Shown here: positions 1-43,737 of the stretch, in pieces
How positions within the stretch are numbered: the stretch's first letter is position 1
Layout of the letters: each line of letters begins with the position of its first letter
Source of the DNA: Clostridia bacterium
Lineage (GTDB): Bacteria; Bacillota; Clostridia; RUG12999
Direction of reading: 5' to 3'
Assembly (NCBI GenBank): GCA_045648785.1
Contig: JAZROP010000041.1
Span: 20,268 to 84,267, forward strand
DNA length: 64,000 bases
Position numbers and translations under genes: made by a program
Notes under the pieces: generated by a model
The model's input: the letters and a program-made list of their open reading frames with translations, nothing else
Database searches by the model: none
Told to the model about the DNA's origin: nothing

Positions 1-1783
1 TCATAAGACTGAGAACGGATTTGTATTCAGAGTATGGGCACCACAGGCAAAAAGTGTGCGAATAGTAGGTGATTTCAATTTTTGGGATGATGATACGGAT
101 TATATGGAGAAAATCCATGGCGGAATATGGGAGGGAAAAATAGATGGTGCCAAAATTTTTGATAACTATAAATTTGTTATTGAAAAAATAAGCGGTGAAA
201 AAGTACTTAAAAGCGATCCTTTTGCATTTCATAGTTGTACACGCCCCGATAATGCAAGTAAAATTTATTCTACAGACAACTTTAAGTGGAGTGACGGAGA
301 ATATATAAAAAAAAGAAAAAATCCGCTTGTGTCACCTTTGAATATATATGAGGTGCATTTTGGTTCATGGCAGCGATATGCGGACGGAAATACACTTAAC
401 TACAGAGAAATGGCAGACCGGCTTAGCAGTTATGTAGCTGAGATGGGGTATACTCATATTGAACTTTTACCAATATCGGAATACCCATTTGATCCATCAT
501 GGGGATATCAGGTTACAGGATATTATGCACCCACCTCCAGATATGGTACGCCGGAGGATTTTGCATATTTTGTAAATAAGTGTCATGAGATGGGTATTGG
601 TGTGATTTTAGATTGGGTGGGAGCCCATTTTCCAAAAGATGAAAATGGACTTTATGAGTTTGACGGAAGTTATTGTTTTGAATATTCAGACCCACTTAAA
701 AGAGAGCATCCCGAATGGAACACGAGAATTTTTGATTATGGAAAAAATGAAGTAAAATCATTCCTCATTTCAAACATAACTTTTTGGCAGAAAGTGTATC
801 ATATAGATGGCTTCAGAGTTGATGCAGTTGCATCAATGCTCTATCTTGATTATGGAAAACAGGGTGGACAGTGGCGACCAAATAAAGAGGGTGGAAATAT
901 TAATAATGATGCTATTGAGTTTTTACAACAGCTCAACCGGTCTGCATTTGAAATTAATGAAAATGTTCTTATGATAGCAGAAGAGTCAACAGCGTTTCCT
1001 CTTGTGACAAAACCACCTGAGGATGGGGGACTGGGTTTTAATTTTAAATGGAATATGGGCTGGATGAATGACATACTTGATTATCTCTCTTCAGACCCGC
1101 TTTTCAGAAAAGGTAAACATAGTGCACTAACCTTTCCTTTTTTCTATGCATTTTCAGAAAACTATATTCTGCCTATTTCACATGATGAGGTTGTGTATGG
1201 GAAAAAATCTATGATAAACAAAATACCGGCAGAATACGAAGAAAAATTTGATACACTCCGGGCATTTTACGCATATATGGTTGCTCATCCGGGGAAAAAA
1301 CTTTCATTTATGGGAAATGAATTTGGGCAGTTTAAAGAATGGGATTTTTCAAAAGAGCTTGACTGGAATCTCCTCAGCTTCGATAAACATAAAAAACTTT
1401 ATCTTTTTATAAAACAACTAAATCAATTTTATCTCACCAGTAGCGAACTATGGGAAAATGATACTGACTGGACTGGATTTAAATGGATTGTAAGCGATGA
1501 CAGGGACAACAGTGTTATTGCTTTCAGGAGAATTAATAAGAAGGGTGAGGAGATTATTTGTGTTTGTAATTTTTGCCCGGTTTTACGAAAAGGGTACAGA
1601 ATTGGAGTGCCGGAAAAAGGCATATATAAGCCGGTTTTAAACTCGGACAGAAAAATTTATGGTGGTGGCGGAACAAGACTTAGAAAGGTTAAATCCGCTG
1701 AAAAAGAGTCGCATGGATTTCCTTTCAGTATTAGTCTTACGCTTCCGCCACTGTCAACAGTATATTACAAATCAGAGAGGTGA
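1..1783 (+). CDS. glgB: 1,4-alpha-glucan branching enzyme GlgB (5' partial; frame continues upstream of the window start)
   Basis: Reading frame is open from position 2 ([30 protein letters not shown]...). GH13 catalytic-core motifs follow ([37 protein letters not shown]) and the protein carries the branching-enzyme C-terminus. Confidence 0.9.
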
Positions 1784-2950: not shown

Positions 2951-4048
2951 ATGAAAGCAACAGGAATTATTTTTTCAAATATATATGACAGTGTAATGGG
3001 GGAGCTTACTAAAAAGCGTGCAGTGGCATCTCTTCCAATTGGAGGCAGGTACAGACTAATAGATTTTATGCTGTCCAATATGGCAAATTCGGGAATATAT
3101 TCAGTAGGAGTACTGACTAAATATAACTACCGTTCTCTGCTTGACCATCTTGGTAGCGGAAGTGAATGGGATTTGAACAGAAAAAACGGAGGGCTTTTTA
3201 TTCTGCCTCCGTTTACCTCAGGAGACTTAGCTGAACCCAGAGGTAAATTTGAAGCAATGTATAACGCAATACCTTTTTTAAACAGAGTAAAAACTGATTA
3301 TGTTATACTTTGTGATGCTTCAGTGGTATGTAAGGTTGATTTTGAAAAAATTCTTGACAATCATATTGCTTCAGGGGTAGATATTACAGCTGTTGCAAGT
3401 GTTGAAAAAGATTATAAGTGTGATGAAAAGGATGTAACATTTGAGATATCCGGGGACAAAATTAATGAAATTTCAATAGGATACAGAAGTAAGAAAAACT
3501 GTCCTGTAAGTATGGGTATTTATGTAATAAAAAGAAGTCAGCTGATTGAGGCTGCGGAGGAATTTGTAAGCAAAGGCAGATACAGCTTTGAAAAGGATTA
3601 TATGCAGGCAGGATTTTTAAGTGGTGAACTTAAAGTAAACCTTTATCTATTTGATGGAATTGTTCTTAGAAACCGGAATATAGAATCATATTTTAAAAAT
3701 AATATCCGGCTTATGGAGGAAAAAGTTAGAAAAGAAATTTTCAGTCGTGAAATGCCGGTATATACAAAAGTAAGGTATGAAGTGCCCACCTTATACGGTG
3801 AAATGTGCAATGTAAATGACTGCTTTGTTGCTGATGGATGTAAAATACTTGGAGAAGCAGAAAATTCGGTTATCTTCCGTGATGTTGTTCTGGAAGAGGG
3901 TGCACGCGTTAAAAACTGCATTATAATGCAGGGTGTAAAGGTTTCTAAAGGTGCGGATATAGAAAATGCAATTGTTGAAAAAAATACTGTTGTAAACGAA
4001 AATGAAATTTTCAGAGGAGCTGAGAATTCTCCTGTTATTGTAAGATAG
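2951..4048 (+). CDS. glgD: glucose-1-phosphate adenylyltransferase regulatory subunit GlgD
   Basis: Paralogous to GlgC (AVASLPIGGRYRLIDFMLSNMANSGI) but diverged, and sits in the Firmicutes glgC-glgD position. Confidence 0.85.
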   Translation: MKATGIIFSNIYDSVMGELTKKRAVASLPIGGRYRLIDFMLSNMANSGIYSVGVLTKYNYRSLLDHLGSGSEWDLNRKNGGLFILPPFTSGDLAEPRGKFEAMYNAIPFLNRVKTDYVILCDASVVCKVDFEKILDNHIASGVDITAVASVEKDYKCDEKDVTFEISGDKINEISIGYRSKKNCPVSMGIYVIKRSQLIEAAEEFVSKGRYSFEKDYMQAGFLSGELKVNLYLFDGIVLRNRNIESYFKNNIRLMEEKVRKEIFSREMPVYTKVRYEVPTLYGEMCNVNDCFVADGCKILGEAENSVIFRDVVLEEGARVKNCIIMQGVKVSKGADIENAIVEKNTVVNENEIFRGAENSPVIVR

Positions 4049-4063
4049 AAAAGAGGAAAAATT

Positions 4064-5482
4064 TTGAAGATACTTTTTGCAGCAAGTGAGGCGGCGCCAT
4101 TTGTTAAATCGGGCGGGCTTGGTGATGTTATGGGAGCACTTCCACCTGCTCTTGCACAAAATAATAATATTGAAACATGTGTGGTTCTGCCTTTTTATGC
4201 ATCAATAAAAAACTCAATAGACGCAGAGTTTGTCTGTAGTTTTAATGTGCCGCTTTCCTGGAGAAATGTGTATGCAGGCATTTATAAAAAGATAAGCAGA
4301 AATGTTACCTGGTATTTTATTGATAATAACTATTATTTCGGCAGGGATTGTTACGGATATGATGACGATGGGGAAAGGTTTGCTTTTTTTGATAAGGCGG
4401 TTGTCGAAGCAATATCTTACATAGATTTTGCTCCCGATTTAATTCATCTTAACGATTGGCAGACTGGATTTATACCACTTTTTTTAAAAGCTCATTACTC
4501 GGACATTCCAATCTATCGTGGTATTAAAACTATATTTACGATACACAATATTGAATATCAGGGCAAGGCAAACCCAGACTTTTTAAATGATGTTCTTGGC
4601 GTGGATGAGTATTGGCGCGGTGCGGCAGAACATGATGGTATGATAAATGCAGTAAAGTGTGCTATTGAGCTGGCTGACAAGGTTACAACGGTTTCTGACA
4701 CCTATGCTCATGAGATTAAACATGCATATTTTGCGGCAGGACTTGAAAGTGTTACCGAACGAAATTCACACAAACTTATGGGAATTGTAAATGGAATAGA
4801 TAATGAAACTTTTAATCCGTCAACAGACTCAGGAGTTAGTGTAAAATATGGAAATAATACAGTTTATCTAAAAGATGAAAATAAAAAGAAACTTAGAAAA
4901 CTCCTTGCACTTGAGGAAAGAGAGAATGTCCCAGTTTTTGCAATAATTTCAAGACTCGCTGAGCATAAGGGAATGGAACTTTTTGAAAGTATCTGGAAAG
5001 AGCTTTTAGAGCATGACTTACAGCTTGTTATAATAGGAACAGGCGAAAAAAAGTATGAGGATTTTTTTAGATTTTTAGAATATTCTTATCCGGGAAAGGT
5101 TTCAGCCAATATAATGTTTGATACAGTGAGGGCATCAAAGATTTATGCGGGGGCAGATTTTCTTTTGATGCCGTCAAAATCAGAGCCGTGCGGACTTTCG
5201 CAACTTATAGCAATGAGATATGGGTGCATACCTATTGTTCGGGAAACAGGAGGGCTTGTAGACACAGTTCCGCCTATTGACACAGCAACTCTTGATGGAC
5301 TCGGCTTTACATTTAAAACCTACAACCCCGGGGACATGCTAGATGCAGTAAAGAGAGCTTCAGACTTTTACAGACAGAAAGATAAGTTTGAATATCTTCG
5401 CCGTAAAATAATGTCGGTAGATAATGGGTGGAATAAAAGGGCAGCACAGTATATTGACCTATATAAAGAAATTTTATCATAA
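4064..5482 (+). CDS. glgA: glycogen synthase GlgA (TTG start)
   Basis: MKILFAASEAAPFVKSGGLGDVMGALP is the GT5 ADP-glucose binding motif. RBS AAGAGGAAAA lies upstream of the TTG. Confidence 0.9.
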   Translation: MKILFAASEAAPFVKSGGLGDVMGALPPALAQNNNIETCVVLPFYASIKNSIDAEFVCSFNVPLSWRNVYAGIYKKISRNVTWYFIDNNYYFGRDCYGYDDDGERFAFFDKAVVEAISYIDFAPDLIHLNDWQTGFIPLFLKAHYSDIPIYRGIKTIFTIHNIEYQGKANPDFLNDVLGVDEYWRGAAEHDGMINAVKCAIELADKVTTVSDTYAHEIKHAYFAAGLESVTERNSHKLMGIVNGIDNETFNPSTDSGVSVKYGNNTVYLKDENKKKLRKLLALEERENVPVFAIISRLAEHKGMELFESIWKELLEHDLQLVIIGTGEKKYEDFFRFLEYSYPGKVSANIMFDTVRASKIYAGADFLLMPSKSEPCGLSQLIAMRYGCIPIVRETGGLVDTVPPIDTATLDGLGFTFKTYNPGDMLDAVKRASDFYRQKDKFEYLRRKIMSVDNGWNKRAAQYIDLYKEILS

Positions 5483-12058: not shown

Positions 12059-12499
12059 TTACATTCCTTTCATTTTAACTATAAGCTTAACACCTGAAAT
12101 TTCAACAATTTCAACAACTTCACGCTCGGAAATAATAAATCCGTGCTCCGAACGGGCTGACCATACATTGCCGTCAATTTTAACCTGACCTGTTCCTGCA
12201 AGGTTATCAATTTTTTCGATAACAATAGCCTGTTTACCTACAAGACTGTCAATATTGGTAGAGGTCTTACGGATATATTTTACTGCCAAAGGGCGTGTAA
12301 AAATAAGCAGAACAACTGTAGCAACAACAAAGAAAATAATCTGGAGAGAAGAACTGCCTCCAAGTGCTGATACAACCATTGCTGCAATGGCACCAAATCC
12401 AAACCATATAGTTGTTAAATTGACGGTAAGTGCTTCAACAGCAAACAAAACAATTGCAATTACAAGCCACAAAAATTCAGAATTAGTTAAAAAATCCAT
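12059..12499 (-). CDS. NfeD-family membrane protein, partner of the SPFH protein
   Basis: Two TM helices plus a C-terminal OB-fold-like segment, 3 nt upstream of the SPFH gene. ATG at 12499 is preceded by GGAGGTG. The TTG at 12562 from the ORF track lies inside the repeat element and is rejected. Confidence 0.75.
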   Translation of the reverse strand: MDFLTNSEFLWLVIAIVLFAVEALTVNLTTIWFGFGAIAAMVVSALGGSSSLQIIFFVVATVVLLIFTRPLAVKYIRKTSTNIDSLVGKQAIVIEKIDNLAGTGQVKIDGNVWSARSEHGFIISEREVVEIVEISGVKLIVKMKGM

Positions 12500-12520
12500 G
12501 TAAACACCTCCATACAGTAA

Positions 12521-12659
12521 TTCTTTGCGAAAGCAAAGCAAGGTTCCGGGGACCCATCGCAATCTTTGATTGCGTTAATGGGTCGGGTTGTTATTGCGAA
12601 AGCAAAGCAAGGTTCCGGGGACCCATCGCAATCTTTGATTGCGTTAATGGGTCGGGTTC
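12521..12659. repeat. two identical tandem copies (about 65 nt unit, 69-bp period) of a structured intergenic repeat between prfB and nfeD
   Basis: Unit TTGCGAAAGCAAAGCAAGGTTCCGGGGACCCATCGCAATCTTTGATTGCGTTAATGGGTCGGGTT occurs at about 12525-12589 and 12594-12658. It contains the hairpins TTGC-GAAA-GCAA and CCCAT-CGCAATC-TTT-GATTGCG-TTA-ATGGG. Confidence 0.8.
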
Positions 12660-13782
12660 TTATTTTTCCTTCAGATTGCCAAGACTTTGGCGTTTTAAGT
12701 ATTCATTTATAAAACCATCAATTTCTCCATCCATAACTGCACCAACATTACCCATTTCGTAATCTGTACGATGGTCTTTCACCATTGTATAAGGATGGAA
12801 AACATATGAACGAATCTGGCTACCCCAAGCAATATCCTTCATATTGCCCTTGATATCCTCAATTTTATCCATTTTTTCACGCTCAGCTATTTCCAGAAGC
12901 TTGGATTTAAGCATTTTCATACAGGTTTCTCTGTTCTGAATCTGTGAGCGTTCTGTCTGGCATGCAACTACAATTCCTGTAGGAATATGTGTAATTCTGA
13001 CGGCGGATTCGGTTTTATTAACATGCTGACCGCCTGCACCACTGGAACGATAGGTATCTACCTTTAAATCTTCGGTGCGAATTGTAATTTCGATATCATC
13101 ATCAAACTCGGGCATAACATCAAGTGATGCAAATGATGTGTGGCGTCTGCCCGAAGCATCAAATGGTGAAATGCGAACAAGTCTGTGAACGCCCTTTTCA
13201 GTTTTTGCATATCCGTAAACATTTGTGCCTGAAATAAGCATTGTAACACTTTTAACACCGGCATCATCGCCATCTAAAATATCAAGGATTTTTGTTTCAA
13301 AGCCGCGTCTTTCAGCCCATCTGAGATACATTCTCATGAGCATTTGCACCCAATCCTGTGCCTCGGTTCCGCCAGCGCCTGCATGAAGTGACAAAATTGC
13401 GTTGTTTTTGTCATATGGACCGGTAAGTAGGGTATCAAGACGCATTTTTTCATAATTTTCAGTTAAGTTTCGGCAGCCTGAAATAATTTCTTCTGCCATA
13501 TTTGTATCATTTTCCTCGTTTGCCATATCAATCAGGAGAAGTAAATCTTCCCGCTCTGTGCAAAGAGATTCATATGATAAGATTTTTTCTTTAAGTGCTT
13601 TTGTTTTGCGGAGCACTTTTCCTGAGTTTTCCATATCATCCCAGAAATCGGGGGCAGTTGCCTGATTTTCCAAATCTGAAAGTTCGGATTTTAGTGCAGG
13701 CAAGTTAAAGTGAATCACCTAACTCTTTAATGCCGTCTTCAAGATTTCTTAAAGATAATCTGTATTCTTCAAGCTCTAACAT
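12660..13782 (-). CDS. prfB: peptide chain release factor 2, expressed through a programmed +1 frameshift
   Basis: ORF0 is ATG(13782) MLELEEYRLSLRNLEDGIKELGDSL, 25 codons, followed by UAA. The +1 frame continues NLPALKSELSDLEN...DFWDD...GGQHVNKTESAVRITHIPTGIVVACQTERSQ (SPF/GGQ motifs). The shift site is CTT TAA C with AGGTGAT three nt upstream. Confidence 0.9.
13700..13716 (-). other. prfB +1 recoding site (SD-like AGGUGAU, then CUU UAA C)
   Basis: Codon 25 CUU is followed by the in-frame stop UAA. The downstream body is in the +1 frame. Confidence 0.8.
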
Positions 13783-41670: not shown

Positions 41671-42426
41671 TTATTTATTAGCAGCTTCAACGATGGGAGC
41701 GAATTTTTCTGCTACAAGTGAAGCACCACCGATAAGACCGCCATCAATATCTTCTTTTGCAAGAAGTTCAGCAGCATTGGAATCATTCATGCTGCCGCCG
41801 TACTGGATGATGAAATCCTGTGCACAGTGAGGACAGTAGAGGTCGCCGAGAATGTCTCTAATGCCTTTGCAAACCTCCTGAGCCTGGTCGGCTGTAGCGG
41901 TTTTGCCTGTACCGATAGCCCAGATTGGTTCGTATGCAATGATAACCTTTTTAGCATCTTCAGCATCAATGCCTGCAAATGCTTTTTTAATCTGAATAGC
42001 AATCAGGTCCATTGTAATGCCTGCTTCTCTTTCCTCTAAACTTTCACCAACACAAACGATTGGGAGAAGTCCTTTTTCAAGAGCTTTTTTAGTTTTAAGG
42101 TTAACAGTTTCGTCTGTTTCTGCAAAATACTGGCGTCTTTCGGAATGGCCGATGATAACATATTCAACACCAATATCCTTAAGCATATCAGCACTTACTT
42201 CGCCTGTGAATGCGCCCTTATCTTCGAAATGAAGATTTTCAGCACCGATTTTTACATGTGTGCCTGTAGCAGCTTTAACTGCTTCAGTAAGACAAACATA
42301 AGGTGTGCAGCAAACAACGGTGCATGTCGCACCTTTTGTAGCAGCTTCAACTTCCTTGATAAAACCAAATGTTTCAGAGGGAAGTTTATTCATTTTCCAA
42401 TTACCTGCAATAACTTTTGTTCTCAT
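41671..42426 (-). CDS. tpiA: triosephosphate isomerase
   Basis: [15 protein letters not shown] and GGASLV motifs. Confidence 0.97.
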
Positions 42427-42480
42427 AATATATTAGTGATTCCTTTCCTGTGATTAATGAATAAAAAGAGATTACAAAAC

Positions 42481-42548
42481 AATTCTTGCGCAAGCAAGGT
42501 TCCGGCTTTTCCCGATCTCAATCTGTGATTGCGTAAGCGGAGCAGATT
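42481..42548. repeat. diverged third copy of the structured intergenic repeat (pgk-tpiA spacer)
   Basis: AATTCTTGCGCAAGCAAGGTTCCGG...CAATCTGTGATTGCGT shares the 5' flank AATTCTT, the core GCAAGCAAGGTTCCGG and the CAATCT-N-TGATTGCGT hairpin with the 12.5-kb copies. Confidence 0.6.
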
Positions 42549-42549
42549 C

Positions 42550-43737
42550 TTACTTTTCCTGAAGACAAGCAATTCCGGGAAGTTCAAGTCCTTCAAGGAA
42601 TTCAAGTGATGCGCCGCCACCTGTGGAAATGTGGCTCATTTTATCGCCAAGACCGAGAACTTCAACTGCAGCTGCAGAGTCACCACCACCGATTACTGTG
42701 ATAGCGTCTGTTTCTGCACAAGCATTAGCGATTGCAGTTGTACCTGCGGCAAAGTTGGACATTTCAAATACGCCCATAGGTCCGTTCCAAACAATTGTTT
42801 TAGCTTCTTTTACAGCCGCGCTGAAAAGTTCAACTGTTTTAGGACCAATATCAAGACCCATCCAGCCGTCAGGAATTTTGTTTTCATCTACTAAATCTCT
42901 GTTTGCGTCATTATCGTATTTATCTGCTATAACTGTATCAACAGGGAGAAGAAGTTTAACTCCTTTTTCTTTAGCTTTTTCGATGATTTCGAGGCAGTAT
43001 CCGAGTCTTTCTTCGTCACAGAGGGAGTTACCGATGCTGCCGCCCTGAGCTTTTGTGAATGTGTAAGCCATACCGCCGCCGATGATGAGGCTATCAACTT
43101 TATCAAGCAGAGAGTTGATAACACCGATTTTGTCTTTAACTTTCGCACCGCCGAGGATAGCGAGGAAAGGTCTTTCGGGGTTAGCTACCGCACTGCCGAG
43201 GAATTTGATTTCCTTCTGAATGAGGTAACCAGAAACTGCAGGGAGATAATCTGCAACACCTGCTGTTGAAGCGTGAGCTCTGTGTGCTGTACCGAAAGCG
43301 TCATTTACAAAGATTTCAGCAAAGTCAGCAAGTGCTTTTGCAAAAGCAGGGTCGTTCTTTTCTTCTTCTGCGTGGAAACGAACATTTTCAAGAAGGCATA
43401 CATCGCCGTCTTTTAAAGCGGCAACTGCAGCTTTTGCGCTATCGCCAATAACATCTTCAGCCATCACAACATCTTTGCCGAGGTGTTCGGAAAGTCTTTT
43501 TGCAACGGGAGCAAGAGAATATTTCATATTGAATTCGCCCTTGGGTCTGCCCATGTGTGAGCAAAGTATAACTTTTGCACCATTTTCAACCAGATATTTT
43601 ATCGTGGGAAGAGCACCAACAATTCTGTTTTCGTCAACAATGTTTTTATTTTCATCAAGAGGTACATTAAAGTCACATCTTACGAGGACTTTTTTTCCAG
43701 CAACGGAAATGTCTTCAATAGTTTTTTTGTTTAACAT
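42550..43737 (-). CDS. pgk: phosphoglycerate kinase
   Basis: RCDFNVP, the hinge region and the C-terminal GGGASLE motif. Confidence 0.97.

What the first reader, a model, noticed from the sequence alone, without database searches (positions are those of the whole stretch)
12521..12659. Structured intergenic repeat family: two identical tandem copies between prfB and nfeD, plus a diverged copy between pgk and tpiA
A roughly 65-nt unit (TTGCGAAAGCAAAGCAAGGTTCCGGGGACCCATCGCAATCTTTGATTGCGTTAATGGGTCGGGTT) occurs twice in perfect tandem with a 69-bp period, filling the 160-bp prfB-nfeD spacer. It folds into a GAAA-capped 4-bp hairpin and a strong 12-bp interrupted hairpin (CCCAT-CGCAATC/GATTGCG-ATGGG). 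A third, diverged copy at 42481-42548 keeps the same 5' flank AATTCTT, the core GCAAGCAAGGTTCCGG and a CAATCT-N-TGATTGCGT hairpin. All copies sit inside minus-strand operons directly after the stop codon of a highly expressed gene (prfB, pgk). That placement is reminiscent of REP/BIME, streptococcal BOX/RUP or neisserial Correia-type elements, which act as mRNA stabilisers, attenuators or processing sites. I do not recognise this sequence as a described family.
Basis: seen in the sequence. Interest (0 to 1): 0.6.

Follow-up and report, generated by a model that had tools for sequence, protein, structure and literature searches.

The report
Stop-codon-anchored miniature hairpin insertion element
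The repeat is real. It belongs to a previously undescribed family of about 62-base hairpin elements that insert, always in the same orientation, into the hexamer TAAGAA, usually where TAA is a gene's stop codon, in gut Clostridia; what it does to the host messenger RNA has not been tested.

Summary
Observation confirmed. Two head-to-tail copies (period 69) fill the 160-nt prfB-nfeD spacer, and a decayed third copy follows pgk. There are no other copies in the window.

It is not a local duplication. Scans and a covariance model found members in at least seven other uncultured Clostridia (Monoglobales-like) assemblies and in cultured Acetoanaerobium noterae.

All copies share one plan, written here on the window + strand: TTCTT, a small hairpin, the nearly invariant AGCAAGGTTCC, a 12-bp bulged hairpin, GGG, then TTCTT-A. 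The stems covary (13 of 25 pairs changed on both sides; 0 of 500 shuffles as good).

In 9 of 11 independent loci from the genome and metagenome scans, the terminal TTA is the stop codon (TAA) of a gene on the other strand.

Close relatives have empty sites with unchanged protein ends. One strain-level pair shows a 60-nt body inserted into a pre-existing TAAGAA, leaving AAGAA on both sides.

There are no terminal inverted repeats, no Rfam match, and no phage or true plasmid match.

Best reading: a miniature, non-autonomous, target-specific mobile element that can expand in tandem. The mobilising enzyme is unknown; hairpin-dependent single-strand (HUH/Y1-type) transposition is the nearest analogue.

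An effect on the mRNA like that of REP elements is plausible but untested.

The parts
12521..12525 (-). Distal direct repeat. It reads TTCTT on the + strand and AAGAA on the gene (minus) strand, and flanks the array on the nfeD side.
   Evidence: Read. The same pentamer borders nearly every family member. The strain-level filled/empty pair shows AAGAA on both sides after insertion.
12526..12587 (-). Unit 1 body (62 nt), the copy nearer nfeD. It contains the small hairpin 12525-12536 (TTGC-GAAA-GCAA), the invariant core AGCAAGGTTCCGG at 12537-12549, and the bulged hairpin 12552-12583 (ACCCAT-CGCAATC-TTT-GATTGCG-TTA-ATGGGT).
   Evidence: Covariance-model hits: 89.1 bits and 68.3 bits. Folds.
12588..12594 (-). 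Internal junction TTGTTAT between the two units. It is a degenerate version of the terminal TTCTTA. The array in L135 has a similar internal junction, GGGTTGTTCTT.
12595..12656 (-). Unit 2 body (62 nt), the copy next to prfB. It is identical to the unit 1 body.
   Evidence: Covariance-model hit of 93.3 bits.
12657..12662 (-). Proximal target hexamer. It reads TTCTTA on the + strand and TAAGAA on the gene strand. Its TAA (12660-12662) is the prfB stop codon.
   Evidence: The RF2 C-terminus (...NLKEK*) is unchanged relative to relatives that lack the element.
12660..13782 (-). prfB (RF2), the upstream host gene. It has a +1 frameshift site, CTT TAA C, at 13704-13710.
   Evidence: Pfam domains PCRF and RF-1 are recorded on the orthologues.
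12059..12499 (-). nfeD, the downstream gene. Its ribosome-binding site GGAGG lies about 12 nt after the end of the array.
   Evidence: PF01957.
42483..42551 (-). Third, decayed copy: TTCTT (42483-42487), body (42488-42546), TTCTT (42547-42551). The pgk stop TAA is at 42550-42552.
   Evidence: Covariance-model hit of 55 bits, E = 3e-11. The stems carry mismatches and the fold is no better than shuffles. The site is empty in a relative whose TpiA is 92% identical.
41671..43737 (-). pgk (42550-43737) and tpiA (41671-42426), the genes that flank the third copy.
   Evidence: PF00162, PF00121.

Best explanation
The repeat is a miniature, non-autonomous mobile DNA element with a body of about 60-62 nt.

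Written on the strand antisense to the host gene, its plan is:
- TTCTT;
- a 4-5 bp hairpin;
- AGCAAGGTTCC;
- a 5-7 bp plus 7 bp hairpin with a 3-nt bulge and a 3-nt loop;
- (C)GGG;
- TTCTT-A.

It inserts in one fixed orientation into the hexamer TAAGAA on the host gene's sense strand. After insertion, AAGAA lies on both sides. In most cases the TAA of that hexamer is the gene's stop codon, so the element ends up as the first thing in the 3' UTR or intercistronic spacer.

Because the target pentamer is re-created at its end, units can pile up head to tail. This gives two units at prfB here, and one to five elsewhere.

Shown:
- membership of a family;
- covarying hairpins;
- insertion/absence polymorphism;
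- the target motif;
- fixed orientation;
- absence of terminal inverted repeats.

Inferred: it is mobilised in trans by an enzyme encoded elsewhere. The most likely kind is a hairpin-recognising single-strand DNA (HUH/Y1, IS200/IS605- or RAYT-like) transposase. The conserved internal AAGG may pair with the flanking TCTT as a guide pairs with its cleavage site.

Also inferred, and untested: once inserted, the element is co-transcribed and puts a stable stem-loop (about -20 to -28 kcal/mol per unit) whose base begins inside the stop codon. This could protect the upstream cistron's 3' end or uncouple it from the downstream gene, as REP elements do.
For: 1. A family, not a local duplication. An exact-pattern scan of 185,579 species genomes found true copies in six Clostridia metagenome-assembled genomes, ten loci in all, with arrays of 2 and 3 units. 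One more array came from a metagenome. One copy came from a Monoglobales-like contig. A copy pair is present in the complete genome of Acetoanaerobium noterae.

2. Structure is conserved while sequence changes. On the model-based alignments, 13 of 18 pairs and 13 of 25 pairs show changes on both sides. In one search, 88% of cells are paired, against 32-52% for slid controls, and 0 of 500 shuffles reach the observed values. A variant subfamily in L136 keeps the same architecture with entirely different stems, GGCAC-CGGAAGC-TTT-GCTTCCG-AAC-GTGCC.

3. Mobility. The prfB-nfeD spacer is 10-19 nt with no element in relatives whose NfeD is 75-87% identical. The pgk-tpiA spacer is 19 nt in a relative whose TpiA is 92% identical. 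In both cases the protein C-termini are unchanged. Downstream of rpmE, L162 reads ...aagTAAGAAAATAACAG... and its near-identical relative L161 reads ...aagTAAGAA[60-nt body]AAGAAAAATAACAG.... Thirteen other contigs whose L31 is 96-99% identical to the L128 protein are empty.

4. Copy number differs at orthologous sites: 3 versus 1 (L135 and L131) and 2 versus 1 (L125 and L129).

5. Copies within one genome share private variants. L123 and L135 share the same A.G mismatch.

6. Target and orientation. TAAGAA precedes every copy. Its TAA is a real stop codon in 9 of 11 loci from the genome and metagenome scans: RF2, Pgk, PEPCK, FtsZ, L31, BofA, a PnrA-like binding protein, and DUF1846. The later-found L161 (L31) and L168 copies also abut a stop codon. 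Across about 306 kb of held sequence, 8 of 9 stop-codon TAAGAA sites are occupied, against 1 of about 24 other intergenic TAAGAA sites.

7. Orientation follows the gene rather than the presumed direction of replication. Host genes are co-oriented with all neighbours in L123, L125 and L131/L135. In L130 the host gene converges on the rplKAJL operon.

8. The analogy to IS200/IS605. These elements have subterminal hairpins. They insert 3' of an element-specific tetra- or pentanucleotide, which they read by base pairing (PMC5027513; PMC5934647).
Against: - No transposase or other mobilising gene was seen, and no whole genome could be scanned. The enzyme class is therefore an analogy only.
- Classical IS200/IS605 insertion does not duplicate the target. 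Here I cannot tell whether the second AAGAA is a duplication or the element's own end.
- IS200/IS605 orientation tracks the lagging-strand template. Here orientation tracks the gene.
- The two hairpins are unlike each other, whereas the LE and RE hairpins of IS608 resemble each other (from memory).
- Copy density is low: three copies in 64 kb of the window, none in about 220 kb from close relatives, and one locus in A. noterae.
- The preference for stop-codon sites is stronger than the hexamer alone predicts. Something more is acting: a longer purine-rich target, selection, or a link to translation or transcription.
- The filled L161 site has one more A in the flanking A-run than the empty L162 site predicts.
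Confidence: 0.65

Rival explanations
1. It is primarily a selected cis-acting RNA module of the mRNA. A stem-loop that begins in the stop codon would stabilise or process the upstream cistron, or act on terminating ribosomes. It would be kept at stop codons because it works there, however it spreads.
For: - Orientation is always sense with the host gene, and the element sits directly at the stop codon in 9 of 11 loci from the genome and metagenome scans.
- Compensatory changes preserve the helices.
- Stop-codon sites are over-occupied relative to other intergenic TAAGAA sites.
- Several hosts are abundant-protein genes: RF2, Pgk, PEPCK, FtsZ and L31. One site is a junction between a binding-protein gene and an ABC ATPase gene, the classical setting in which REP elements boost the upstream cistron (the REP precedent is from memory).
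- In 3' UTR cases the element lies between the stop codon and an intrinsic terminator, so it is transcribed.
Against: - Both window sites, and the rpmE site, are empty in very close relatives with no change to the genes. The element is therefore dispensable at each site.
- The pgk copy has decayed stems.
- Two loci are not at a stop codon.
- The three conserved G.U pairs of the basal helix form only on the antisense strand. On the mRNA strand they are A.C mismatches: 49 against 2 cells. The antisense strand folds more stably in 13 of 16 copies.
- No U tract follows the hairpin.
- No expression data are available.
Confidence: 0.2
2. It is a conventional MITE, mobilised by a DDE transposase of some IS family that makes a 5-bp target-site duplication at AAGAA.
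For: AAGAA lies on both sides of the insert in the filled/empty pair and in nearly all copies. The element is small, carries no coding capacity conserved across subfamilies, and forms a dispersed family.
Against: - There are no terminal inverted repeats. On the + strand the body starts TGCGAAAGCA, and the reverse complement of its end is CCCGACCCAT.
- The internal organisation is two unlike hairpins in direct order.
- Orientation relative to an asymmetric target is fixed in every case. That is atypical for DDE MITEs (from memory).
Confidence: 0.08
3. It integrates by site-specific recombination between a core AAGAA on a small, possibly single-stranded, circle and the same core in the chromosome. 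This would resemble integron cassettes (attC) or IS110-type elements, and would give core-body-core and (core-body)n-core arrays.
For: - The array architecture in L125 fits (TAAGAA-body)n-AAGAA exactly.
- The element is a folded, bulged hairpin next to the 3' end of a gene, and the antisense (bottom) strand folds better. This recalls attC bottom-strand folding (attC properties from memory).
Against: - The attC core sites RYYYAAC and GTTRRRY are absent. The conserved flanking motifs are direct repeats (GGTTC...GGTTC), not inverted ones.
- The host genes are housekeeping genes scattered around the genome, not cassettes at an attI site.
- The internal junctions in the window and in L135 carry 2-3 extra bases that do not fit this model.
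- No integrase was seen.
Confidence: 0.07
4. It is only a local tandem duplication plus a chance resemblance at pgk, not a family.
For: Only three copies occur in 64 kb.
Against: Copies with the same architecture occur at unrelated genes in at least eight other assemblies, and their stems covary.
Confidence: 0.01

Closest known systems
REP / BIME / REPIN elements with RAYT (TnpA-REP) transposases of Proteobacteria
   Same: Short extragenic hairpin repeats that lie in transcribed 3' and intercistronic regions. They are non-autonomous, have genome-specific subfamilies, and are thought to be moved by a hairpin-recognising HUH enzyme (PMC3116915, PMC8266576). They are known to affect the stability of the upstream mRNA (from memory).
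   Different: There is no GTAG-type head. Units never occur as inverted pairs; all arrays are head to tail. The element is anchored on one specific hexamer, usually at a stop codon. Density is low in the sequence available. The hosts are Clostridia. No RAYT gene was identified.
IS200/IS605 family and its miniature derivatives (PATE-like elements)
   Same: There are no terminal inverted repeats. The ends are built from hairpins. Insertion is next to an element-specific 4-5-nt motif that is read by base pairing, and orientation relative to that motif is fixed (PMC5027513; PMC5934647). The internal AAGG can pair with the flanking TCTT.
   Different: The target motif appears on both sides. The two hairpins are dissimilar. 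The spacing between hairpin and motif differs from IS608. Orientation follows the host gene rather than replication direction. No tnpA gene was seen.
MIRU (mycobacterial interspersed repetitive units)
   Same: Units of 40-100 bp in tandem, with variable copy number, lying in spacers inside operons, oriented with transcription, and touching the stop codon of the upstream gene (from memory).
   Different: MIRUs carry short reading frames that couple the stop codon to the next start codon. Here a 1-nt indel between subfamilies breaks any frame, and one array has a 70-nt period. MIRUs are not defined by covarying hairpins.
Correia (Neisseria), RUP and BOX (Streptococcus) elements
   Same: Small, dispersed, transcribed intergenic repeats with secondary structure. 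BOX has a variable number of internal modules.
   Different: Correia and RUP have terminal inverted repeats and TA target duplications (from memory). None of the three is tied to a stop-codon hexamer, and no sequence relation to them is apparent.
Integron attC sites
   Same: A bulged hairpin site directly after a gene's 3' end, in uniform orientation, conserved more in structure than in sequence.
   Different: The R''/R' core sites are absent. The host genes are scattered housekeeping genes. No integron context is present.

Membership tests
Any Rfam 15 RNA family | Score at or above the family's gathering threshold | tested here: not met
   A scan of the whole window at gathering thresholds finds only a tRNA. 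A permissive scan of 12450-12720 gives only chance-level hits, with E of 3 or more and 10-15 bits against thresholds of 38-95.
REP/BIME (REPIN-RAYT) | Imperfect palindrome headed by a conserved GTAG-like tetranucleotide | tested here: not met
   Hairpins are present, but no GTAG head. The conserved flanks are AAGGTTCC and GGGTTCTT.
REP/BIME (REPIN-RAYT) | Units arranged as inverted pairs (BIME/REPIN) | tested here: not met
   All arrays are head to tail: the window, L125, L135 and L136.
REP/BIME (REPIN-RAYT) | A cognate RAYT gene in the genome, often flanked by REPs; tens to hundreds of copies | not testable with these tools
   No complete genome of a carrier could be scanned. No such gene was noticed among the ORFs and Pfam-annotated genes of the held loci, but they were not searched systematically.
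DDE-type MITE | Terminal inverted repeats | tested here: not met
   The ends are TGCGAAAGCA... and ...ATGGGTCGGG, and the reverse complement of one does not resemble the other.
DDE-type MITE | Short direct duplication of the target | tested here: inconclusive
   AAGAA lies on both sides in the filled site and once in the empty site. The second copy could equally be the element's own end.
IS200/IS605-type single-strand element | Subterminal hairpins, no inverted repeats, insertion adjacent to a specific 4-5-nt motif in a fixed orientation | tested here: met
   Family properties are taken from PMC5027513.
IS200/IS605-type single-strand element | Orientation bias tied to the lagging-strand template | tested here: inconclusive
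   Orientation follows the host gene both in loci where that gene is co-oriented with its neighbours and in L130, where it opposes the rplKAJL operon. Replication direction was only inferred.
IS200/IS605-type single-strand element | A Y1 (HUH) TnpA that binds and cleaves the ends | not testable with these tools
MIRU | A short ORF in each unit that overlaps the upstream stop codon and the downstream start codon | tested here: not met
   A frame is open through the window unit, but 1-nt indels between subfamilies and the 70-nt period in L125 destroy it.
Integron attC | R'' RYYYAAC and R' GTTRRRY core sites pairing at the base of the hairpin | tested here: not met
   The base of the hairpin is AAGGTTCC / GGGTTCTT, which are direct GGTTC motifs.
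Intrinsic terminator | G+C-rich hairpin followed by a U tract on the transcribed strand | tested here: not met
   The scan finds no terminator-like site in the spacer. On the mRNA strand the hairpin is followed by UCCCCGGAACC.

The most novel reading that the evidence does not exclude
The element is moved by an unrecognised system, either a variant single-strand transposition system or something not yet described. Its target choice would be read by base pairing between the internal AAGG(UU) and the flanking (U)UCUU. It would also be coupled to gene expression: integration would occur in the first bases after the stop codon of transcribed genes. There ribosomes leave the message, and the non-template DNA strand or the nascent RNA becomes accessible. 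That would make this the first bacterial mobile element whose niche is defined by translation termination. It would also be a programmable tag for the 3' ends of genes.
Probability: 0.12. Interest if true: 0.8.

Novelty: new variant of a known kind. Interest (0 to 1): 0.5.

Why it matters
Small dispersed repeats are well studied in Proteobacteria, streptococci and neisseriae. They are hardly described in the anaerobic gut Clostridia, which are known mostly from metagenomes.

This family has an unusually sharp signature:
- one hexamer target, usually a stop codon;
- one orientation;
- no inverted repeats;
- covarying hairpins;
- strain-level presence/absence.

These features give it several uses:
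(i) It is a clean system for finding the enzyme that moves it.
(ii) It is a natural experiment on what a strong stem-loop placed exactly at a stop codon does to the expression of housekeeping operons such as secA-prfB-nfeD, pgk-tpiA, ftsZ and rpmE.
(iii) It is a practical marker for strain typing.
(iv) It is a known cause of contig breaks in metagenome assemblies; one Logan contig ends inside it.

A copy in cultured Acetoanaerobium noterae makes experiments possible.

Tried and rejected
- Rfam at gathering and at permissive thresholds: nothing.
- Protein-coding reading: a frame is open through the window unit, but indels between subfamilies break it, and L31 homologues with long C-termini are not read-through products.
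- Terminator or promoter function: no consensus sites in the spacer.
- Phage origin: the 14-mer core gives only chance hits in IMG/VR; a two-box pattern gives none; BLAST against phage records gives none.
- Plasmid origin: the only hit in the plasmid collection is a 2.6-Mb record that is in effect a chromosome.
- tRNA-like, group II intron domain V, boxA/nut and attC resemblances: considered from the sequence and dropped, because the defining motifs are absent.
- Strand of folding from G.U pairs in the variable stems: equivocal. Wobble cells on the antisense versus the mRNA strand are 4 versus 4 in P2, 2 versus 1 in P3, and 3 versus 5 in the small hairpin. Only the invariant basal helix favours the antisense strand.
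- Looking for more copies around orthologous genes in relatives, about 320 kb in all: only one new copy, L161.
The searches that ran targeted REP/tmRNA, IS608 and REPIN/RAYT and turned up no such family.
- The JGI metagenome collection is nearly devoid of the element: 1 true locus.
Full report
**1. The observation**

Tandem Repeats Finder reports a 69-nt period, 2.0 copies and 98% identity at 12525-12664 (sequence). The two 62-nt bodies (12526-12587 and 12595-12656) are identical. The only difference lies in the junction or terminus (TTGTTA versus TTCTTA).

The array fills the 160-nt gap between the prfB stop codon (12660-12662, minus strand) and the nfeD start codon (12497-12499). A third copy lies at 42483-42551, between the pgk stop (42550-42552) and tpiA.

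The shared 16-mer core (up to 3 mismatches) occurs three times against 0.33 expected. A covariance model run without filters finds only these three copies in the 64 kb: 93.3, 68.3 and 55 bits, with the next hit at 14 bits.

The tandem pair folds far better than shuffled sequence on both strands (z about -3.9). The pgk copy does not (z = +0.52), because its stems carry mismatches. It is a decayed copy.

**2. It is a family**

An exact two-box pattern taken from the body was scanned over one genome from each of 185,579 species. It found 14 loci, of which 10 are clearly the same element and 4 are chance matches. All ten true loci are in uncultured gut Clostridia metagenome-assembled genomes from human, roe deer and sheep. 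They include arrays of two units (L125) and three units (L135).

Other sources added more members:
- A metagenome scan with a pattern that left the hairpin free found one more locus, L136. It holds five units in tandem.
- A model search of contigs fetched around rpmE found another copy, L161.
- BLAST against the plasmid collection hit a 2.63-Mb record of cultured Acetoanaerobium noterae DSL2. The record is labelled a plasmid. It holds a good copy next to a degenerate one; the model scores the good copy at 56 bits.

NfeD and L31 homologues closest to the carrier sequences are named Monoglobales bacterium by NCBI. Rfam has no matching family. Phage collections have no copy.

**3. Anatomy**

On the window + strand, which is antisense to the host genes, every member reads as follows:
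- TTCTT;
- a small hairpin;
- AGCAAGGTTCC(GGGG);
- a large hairpin;
- (C)GGG;
- TTCTT-A.

The small hairpin varies between copies: TTGC-GAAA-GCAA, CTTGC-GTCA-GCAAG or TGTG-GAA-CACA.

The large hairpin has a 5-7 bp outer stem, a 7 bp inner stem, a 3-nt loop and a 3-4-nt bulge on the 3' side. Its stems covary:
- Outer stem: CCCAT/ATGGG, ACCCG/CGGGT, ACCCAC/GTGGGT, CCCGT/ACGGG, GCCGC/GCGGC and GGCAC/GTGCC.
- Inner stem: CGCAATC/GATTGCG, GGCAATC/GATTGCC, AGCAATC/GATTGCT, TGCAAAC/GTTTGCG and CGGAAGC/GCTTCCG.

On the model-based alignments:
- 13 of 18 pairs and 13 of 25 pairs have changes on both sides.
- In one search, 88% of cells are paired, against 32-52% when the partners are slid.
- No shuffle out of 500 reaches the observed values.

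Some outer-stem cells score as unpaired only because the model aligns two subtypes one column out of register. Single-sequence folds show that the stem forms in every copy except the decayed pgk copy.

A further basal helix is possible on the + strand. AAGG pairs with TCTT, and TCCGG pairs with TCGGG. It is 96% paired, and two of its positions covary between the main family and the L136 variant. It contains three invariant G.U pairs. On the mRNA strand these would be A.C mismatches, 49 cells against 2. In line with this, the antisense strand folds more stably in 13 of 16 copies.

In the variable stems, wobble pairs are evenly split between the strands. I therefore treat the folded strand as unresolved, leaning to the antisense or bottom strand. 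G+U-rich strands fold better in general, which weakens the energy argument.

**4. Position and orientation**

In mRNA sense every copy begins TAAGAACC. In 9 of 11 independent loci from the genome and metagenome scans, that TAA is the genuine stop codon of a long ORF:
- RF2 and Pgk in the window;
- GTP-dependent PEPCK (L123);
- FtsZ (L125, L129);
- ribosomal protein L31 (L128);
- BofA (L130);
- a PnrA-like binding protein ahead of its ABC ATPase (L131, L135);
- DUF1846 (L132, L133).

The later-found L161 copy (also at L31) and the A. noterae copy add to these. The A. noterae copy follows the stop of a 289-aa gene that lies downstream of an ECF sigma factor gene.

The two exceptions are:
- L134, where the element lies 66 nt after the stop codon, behind a terminator-like hairpin;
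- L136, where the array sits in a leader between a good sigma-70-type promoter and a YfhO gene.

When the host gene is last in its operon, an intrinsic terminator follows the element within about 10-30 nt. The element is therefore transcribed as the start of the 3' UTR. It has no U tract of its own.

Orientation follows the gene. In L123, L125/L129 and L131/L135 the host gene runs the same way as all its neighbours. In L130 it converges on the rplKAJL operon.

**5. Mobility and target**

Both window sites are empty in close relatives.
- Contigs whose NfeD is 75-87% identical have a 10-19-nt prfB-nfeD spacer and the same RF2 C-terminus (...LKEK*).
- A contig whose TpiA is 92% identical has a 19-nt pgk-tpiA spacer.

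The clearest case is downstream of rpmE. Two near-identical contigs differ as follows:
- L162 (empty): gcagaaaagTAAGAAAATAACAGAAAAGC...
- L161 (filled): gcagaaaagTAAGAA-[CCCGACCCG...GCTTGCTTTAC]-AAGAAAAATAACAGAAAAGC...

So a 60-nt body sits in a pre-existing TAAGAA, and AAGAA now lies on both sides. The flanking A-run differs by one A between the two. Thirteen other contigs whose L31 is 96-99% identical to the L128 protein lack the element.

The stop codon therefore belongs to the target, not to the element.

Removing body plus AAGAA from the window sites restores ordinary junctions:
- TAAGAATTACTGTATGGAGGTGTTTAC-ATG for prfB-nfeD;
- TAAGAATTGTTTTG... for pgk-tpiA.

Arrays fit repeated use of the re-created pentamer. 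L125 is exactly (TAAGAA-body)2-AAGAA. The internal junctions in the window and in L135 carry 2-3 extra bases that I cannot explain.

There are no terminal inverted repeats. Copies within one genome share private variants (L123 and L135). Copy number differs between species at the same site: 3 versus 1, and 2 versus 1.

**6. Is stop-codon adjacency more than hexamer preference?**

In the window there are 51 TAAGAA hexamers:
- 44 fall inside called genes. One more, at 13746, was scored intergenic but lies inside the first reading frame of prfB.
- 4 are intergenic but not at a stop codon. All are unoccupied.
- 2 are at stop codons, and both are occupied.

Across about 306 kb of held sequence:
- 8 of 9 stop-codon hexamers are occupied;
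- 1 of about 24 other intergenic hexamers is occupied (the prfB frameshift-leader sites were removed).

Loci were ascertained through the body of the element, not through its context, so the contrast is meaningful, though rough.

Occupied sites always have a purine at position -1 and usually an A at -2. These are Lys or Glu codons before the stop. Restricting the comparison to AR-TAAGAA still leaves 9 occupied and 0 free at stop codons, against 1 occupied and 4 free elsewhere. My own Fisher calculation from the lists gives about 0.005, but the restriction was chosen after seeing the data.

Three explanations remain open:
- The real target is longer and purine-rich.
- Insertions elsewhere, in promoters and leaders, are removed by selection.
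- Integration is somehow favoured just behind terminating ribosomes.

**7. Mechanism**

What is shown: this is a small, structured, target-specific, orientation-specific insertion element with no coding capacity that is conserved across subfamilies. It is recently active at strain level and able to form arrays.

What is inferred is the enzyme. The combination of features is closest to single-strand (HUH/Y1) transposition of the IS200/IS605 family and to REP/RAYT systems. Those features are:
- no inverted repeats;
- ends made of hairpins;
- a fixed 5-nt motif at the junctions;
- possible pairing of an internal AAGG with the flanking TCTT.

In IS200/IS605, the left end always inserts 3' of an element-specific tetra- or pentanucleotide, which is read by base pairing with a guide sequence next to the hairpin (PMC5027513; PMC5934647). 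For REP/RAYT see PMC8266576 and PMC3116915.

Points against simple membership:
- The motif lies on both sides.
- The two hairpins are unlike each other.
- Orientation follows genes rather than replication.
- No transposase was seen.

I could not scan any carrier genome in full, because the collection scans were exhausted.

Whether the element does anything for the host is untested. It places a stem-loop of about -20 to -28 kcal/mol per unit, whose base overlaps the stop codon, in the mRNA of several abundant-protein genes and at a junction between a binding-protein gene and an ABC ATPase gene. That is the classical REP situation, so an effect on upstream mRNA stability or on cistron uncoupling is plausible. 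Set against this, the sites are dispensable in sister strains, and the pgk copy is decaying.

**8. Verdict**

The interpretation as a structured repeat family is right. The functional reading is unproven.

The main new facts are the insertion target (TAAGAA, usually a stop codon) and the strain-level filled/empty evidence.

The element is a new variant within the known kind of miniature non-autonomous bacterial repeats. I found no description of it in Rfam or in the literature searches that ran, though the one search aimed directly at such repeats in Firmicutes failed on a term-format error.

Noticed in passing
window 13704-13710 (minus strand); ORF1 at 13705-13782: The programmed +1 frameshift site of prfB reads CTT TAA C, with an SD-like AGGTGA 3 nt upstream. 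The textbook site is CTT TGA C. Three relatives (L139, L142, L144) have the same UAA-type site. RF1 also reads UAA, so the autoregulatory logic would differ from the classical RF2-specific UGA sensor.
   Followed up: partly
L136 1126-1498, with a promoter near 1600-1630 (minus strand): An array of five units, one canonical and four of a variant subfamily with different stems. It lies in a leader between a near-consensus promoter (TTGAAA, 16-nt spacer, TGgTACAAT) and a YfhO-family gene, not after an ORF. Unit 1 looks like a recombinant of two unit types and has a broken outer stem.
   Followed up: partly
L168 = NZ_CP154629.1 2424117-2432221; element at locus 3980-4102: The PLSDB record 'plasmid pTPELB2' of Acetoanaerobium noterae DSL2 is 2.63 Mb with only four annotated features. 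It is in effect a chromosome. It carries one good and one degenerate copy of the element after a 289-aa gene that lies downstream of an ECF sigma factor gene. This is the only cultured carrier found.
   Followed up: partly
L001 (Logan SRR24653694 contig, 1039 nt): The only other contig that encodes the window's exact NfeD protein ends inside the element. This is probably an assembly break at the tandem repeat.
   Followed up: no
L153-L163, about 100-280 nt downstream of rpmE: The convergent gene downstream of rpmE ends in a long, low-complexity, N/Q-rich tail. It is encoded by GTTGTTCTGATT-type repeats whose length varies between strains.
   Followed up: no
window 12588-12594 and L135 internal junctions: Internal unit junctions in two unrelated genomes read GGGTTGTT(A/C)T, whereas the terminal reading is GGGTTCTTA. 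They share a C-to-G change and carry 2-3 extra bases. Simple re-insertion into AAGAA does not explain this.
   Followed up: no
window, whole: The + strand has an overall positive GC skew (+0.073), with genes split 24 plus and 27 minus. If the + strand is the leading strand, then secA-prfB-nfeD and pgk-tpiA-gpmI would be head-on to replication. That would be unusual for such genes in Firmicutes.
   Followed up: no
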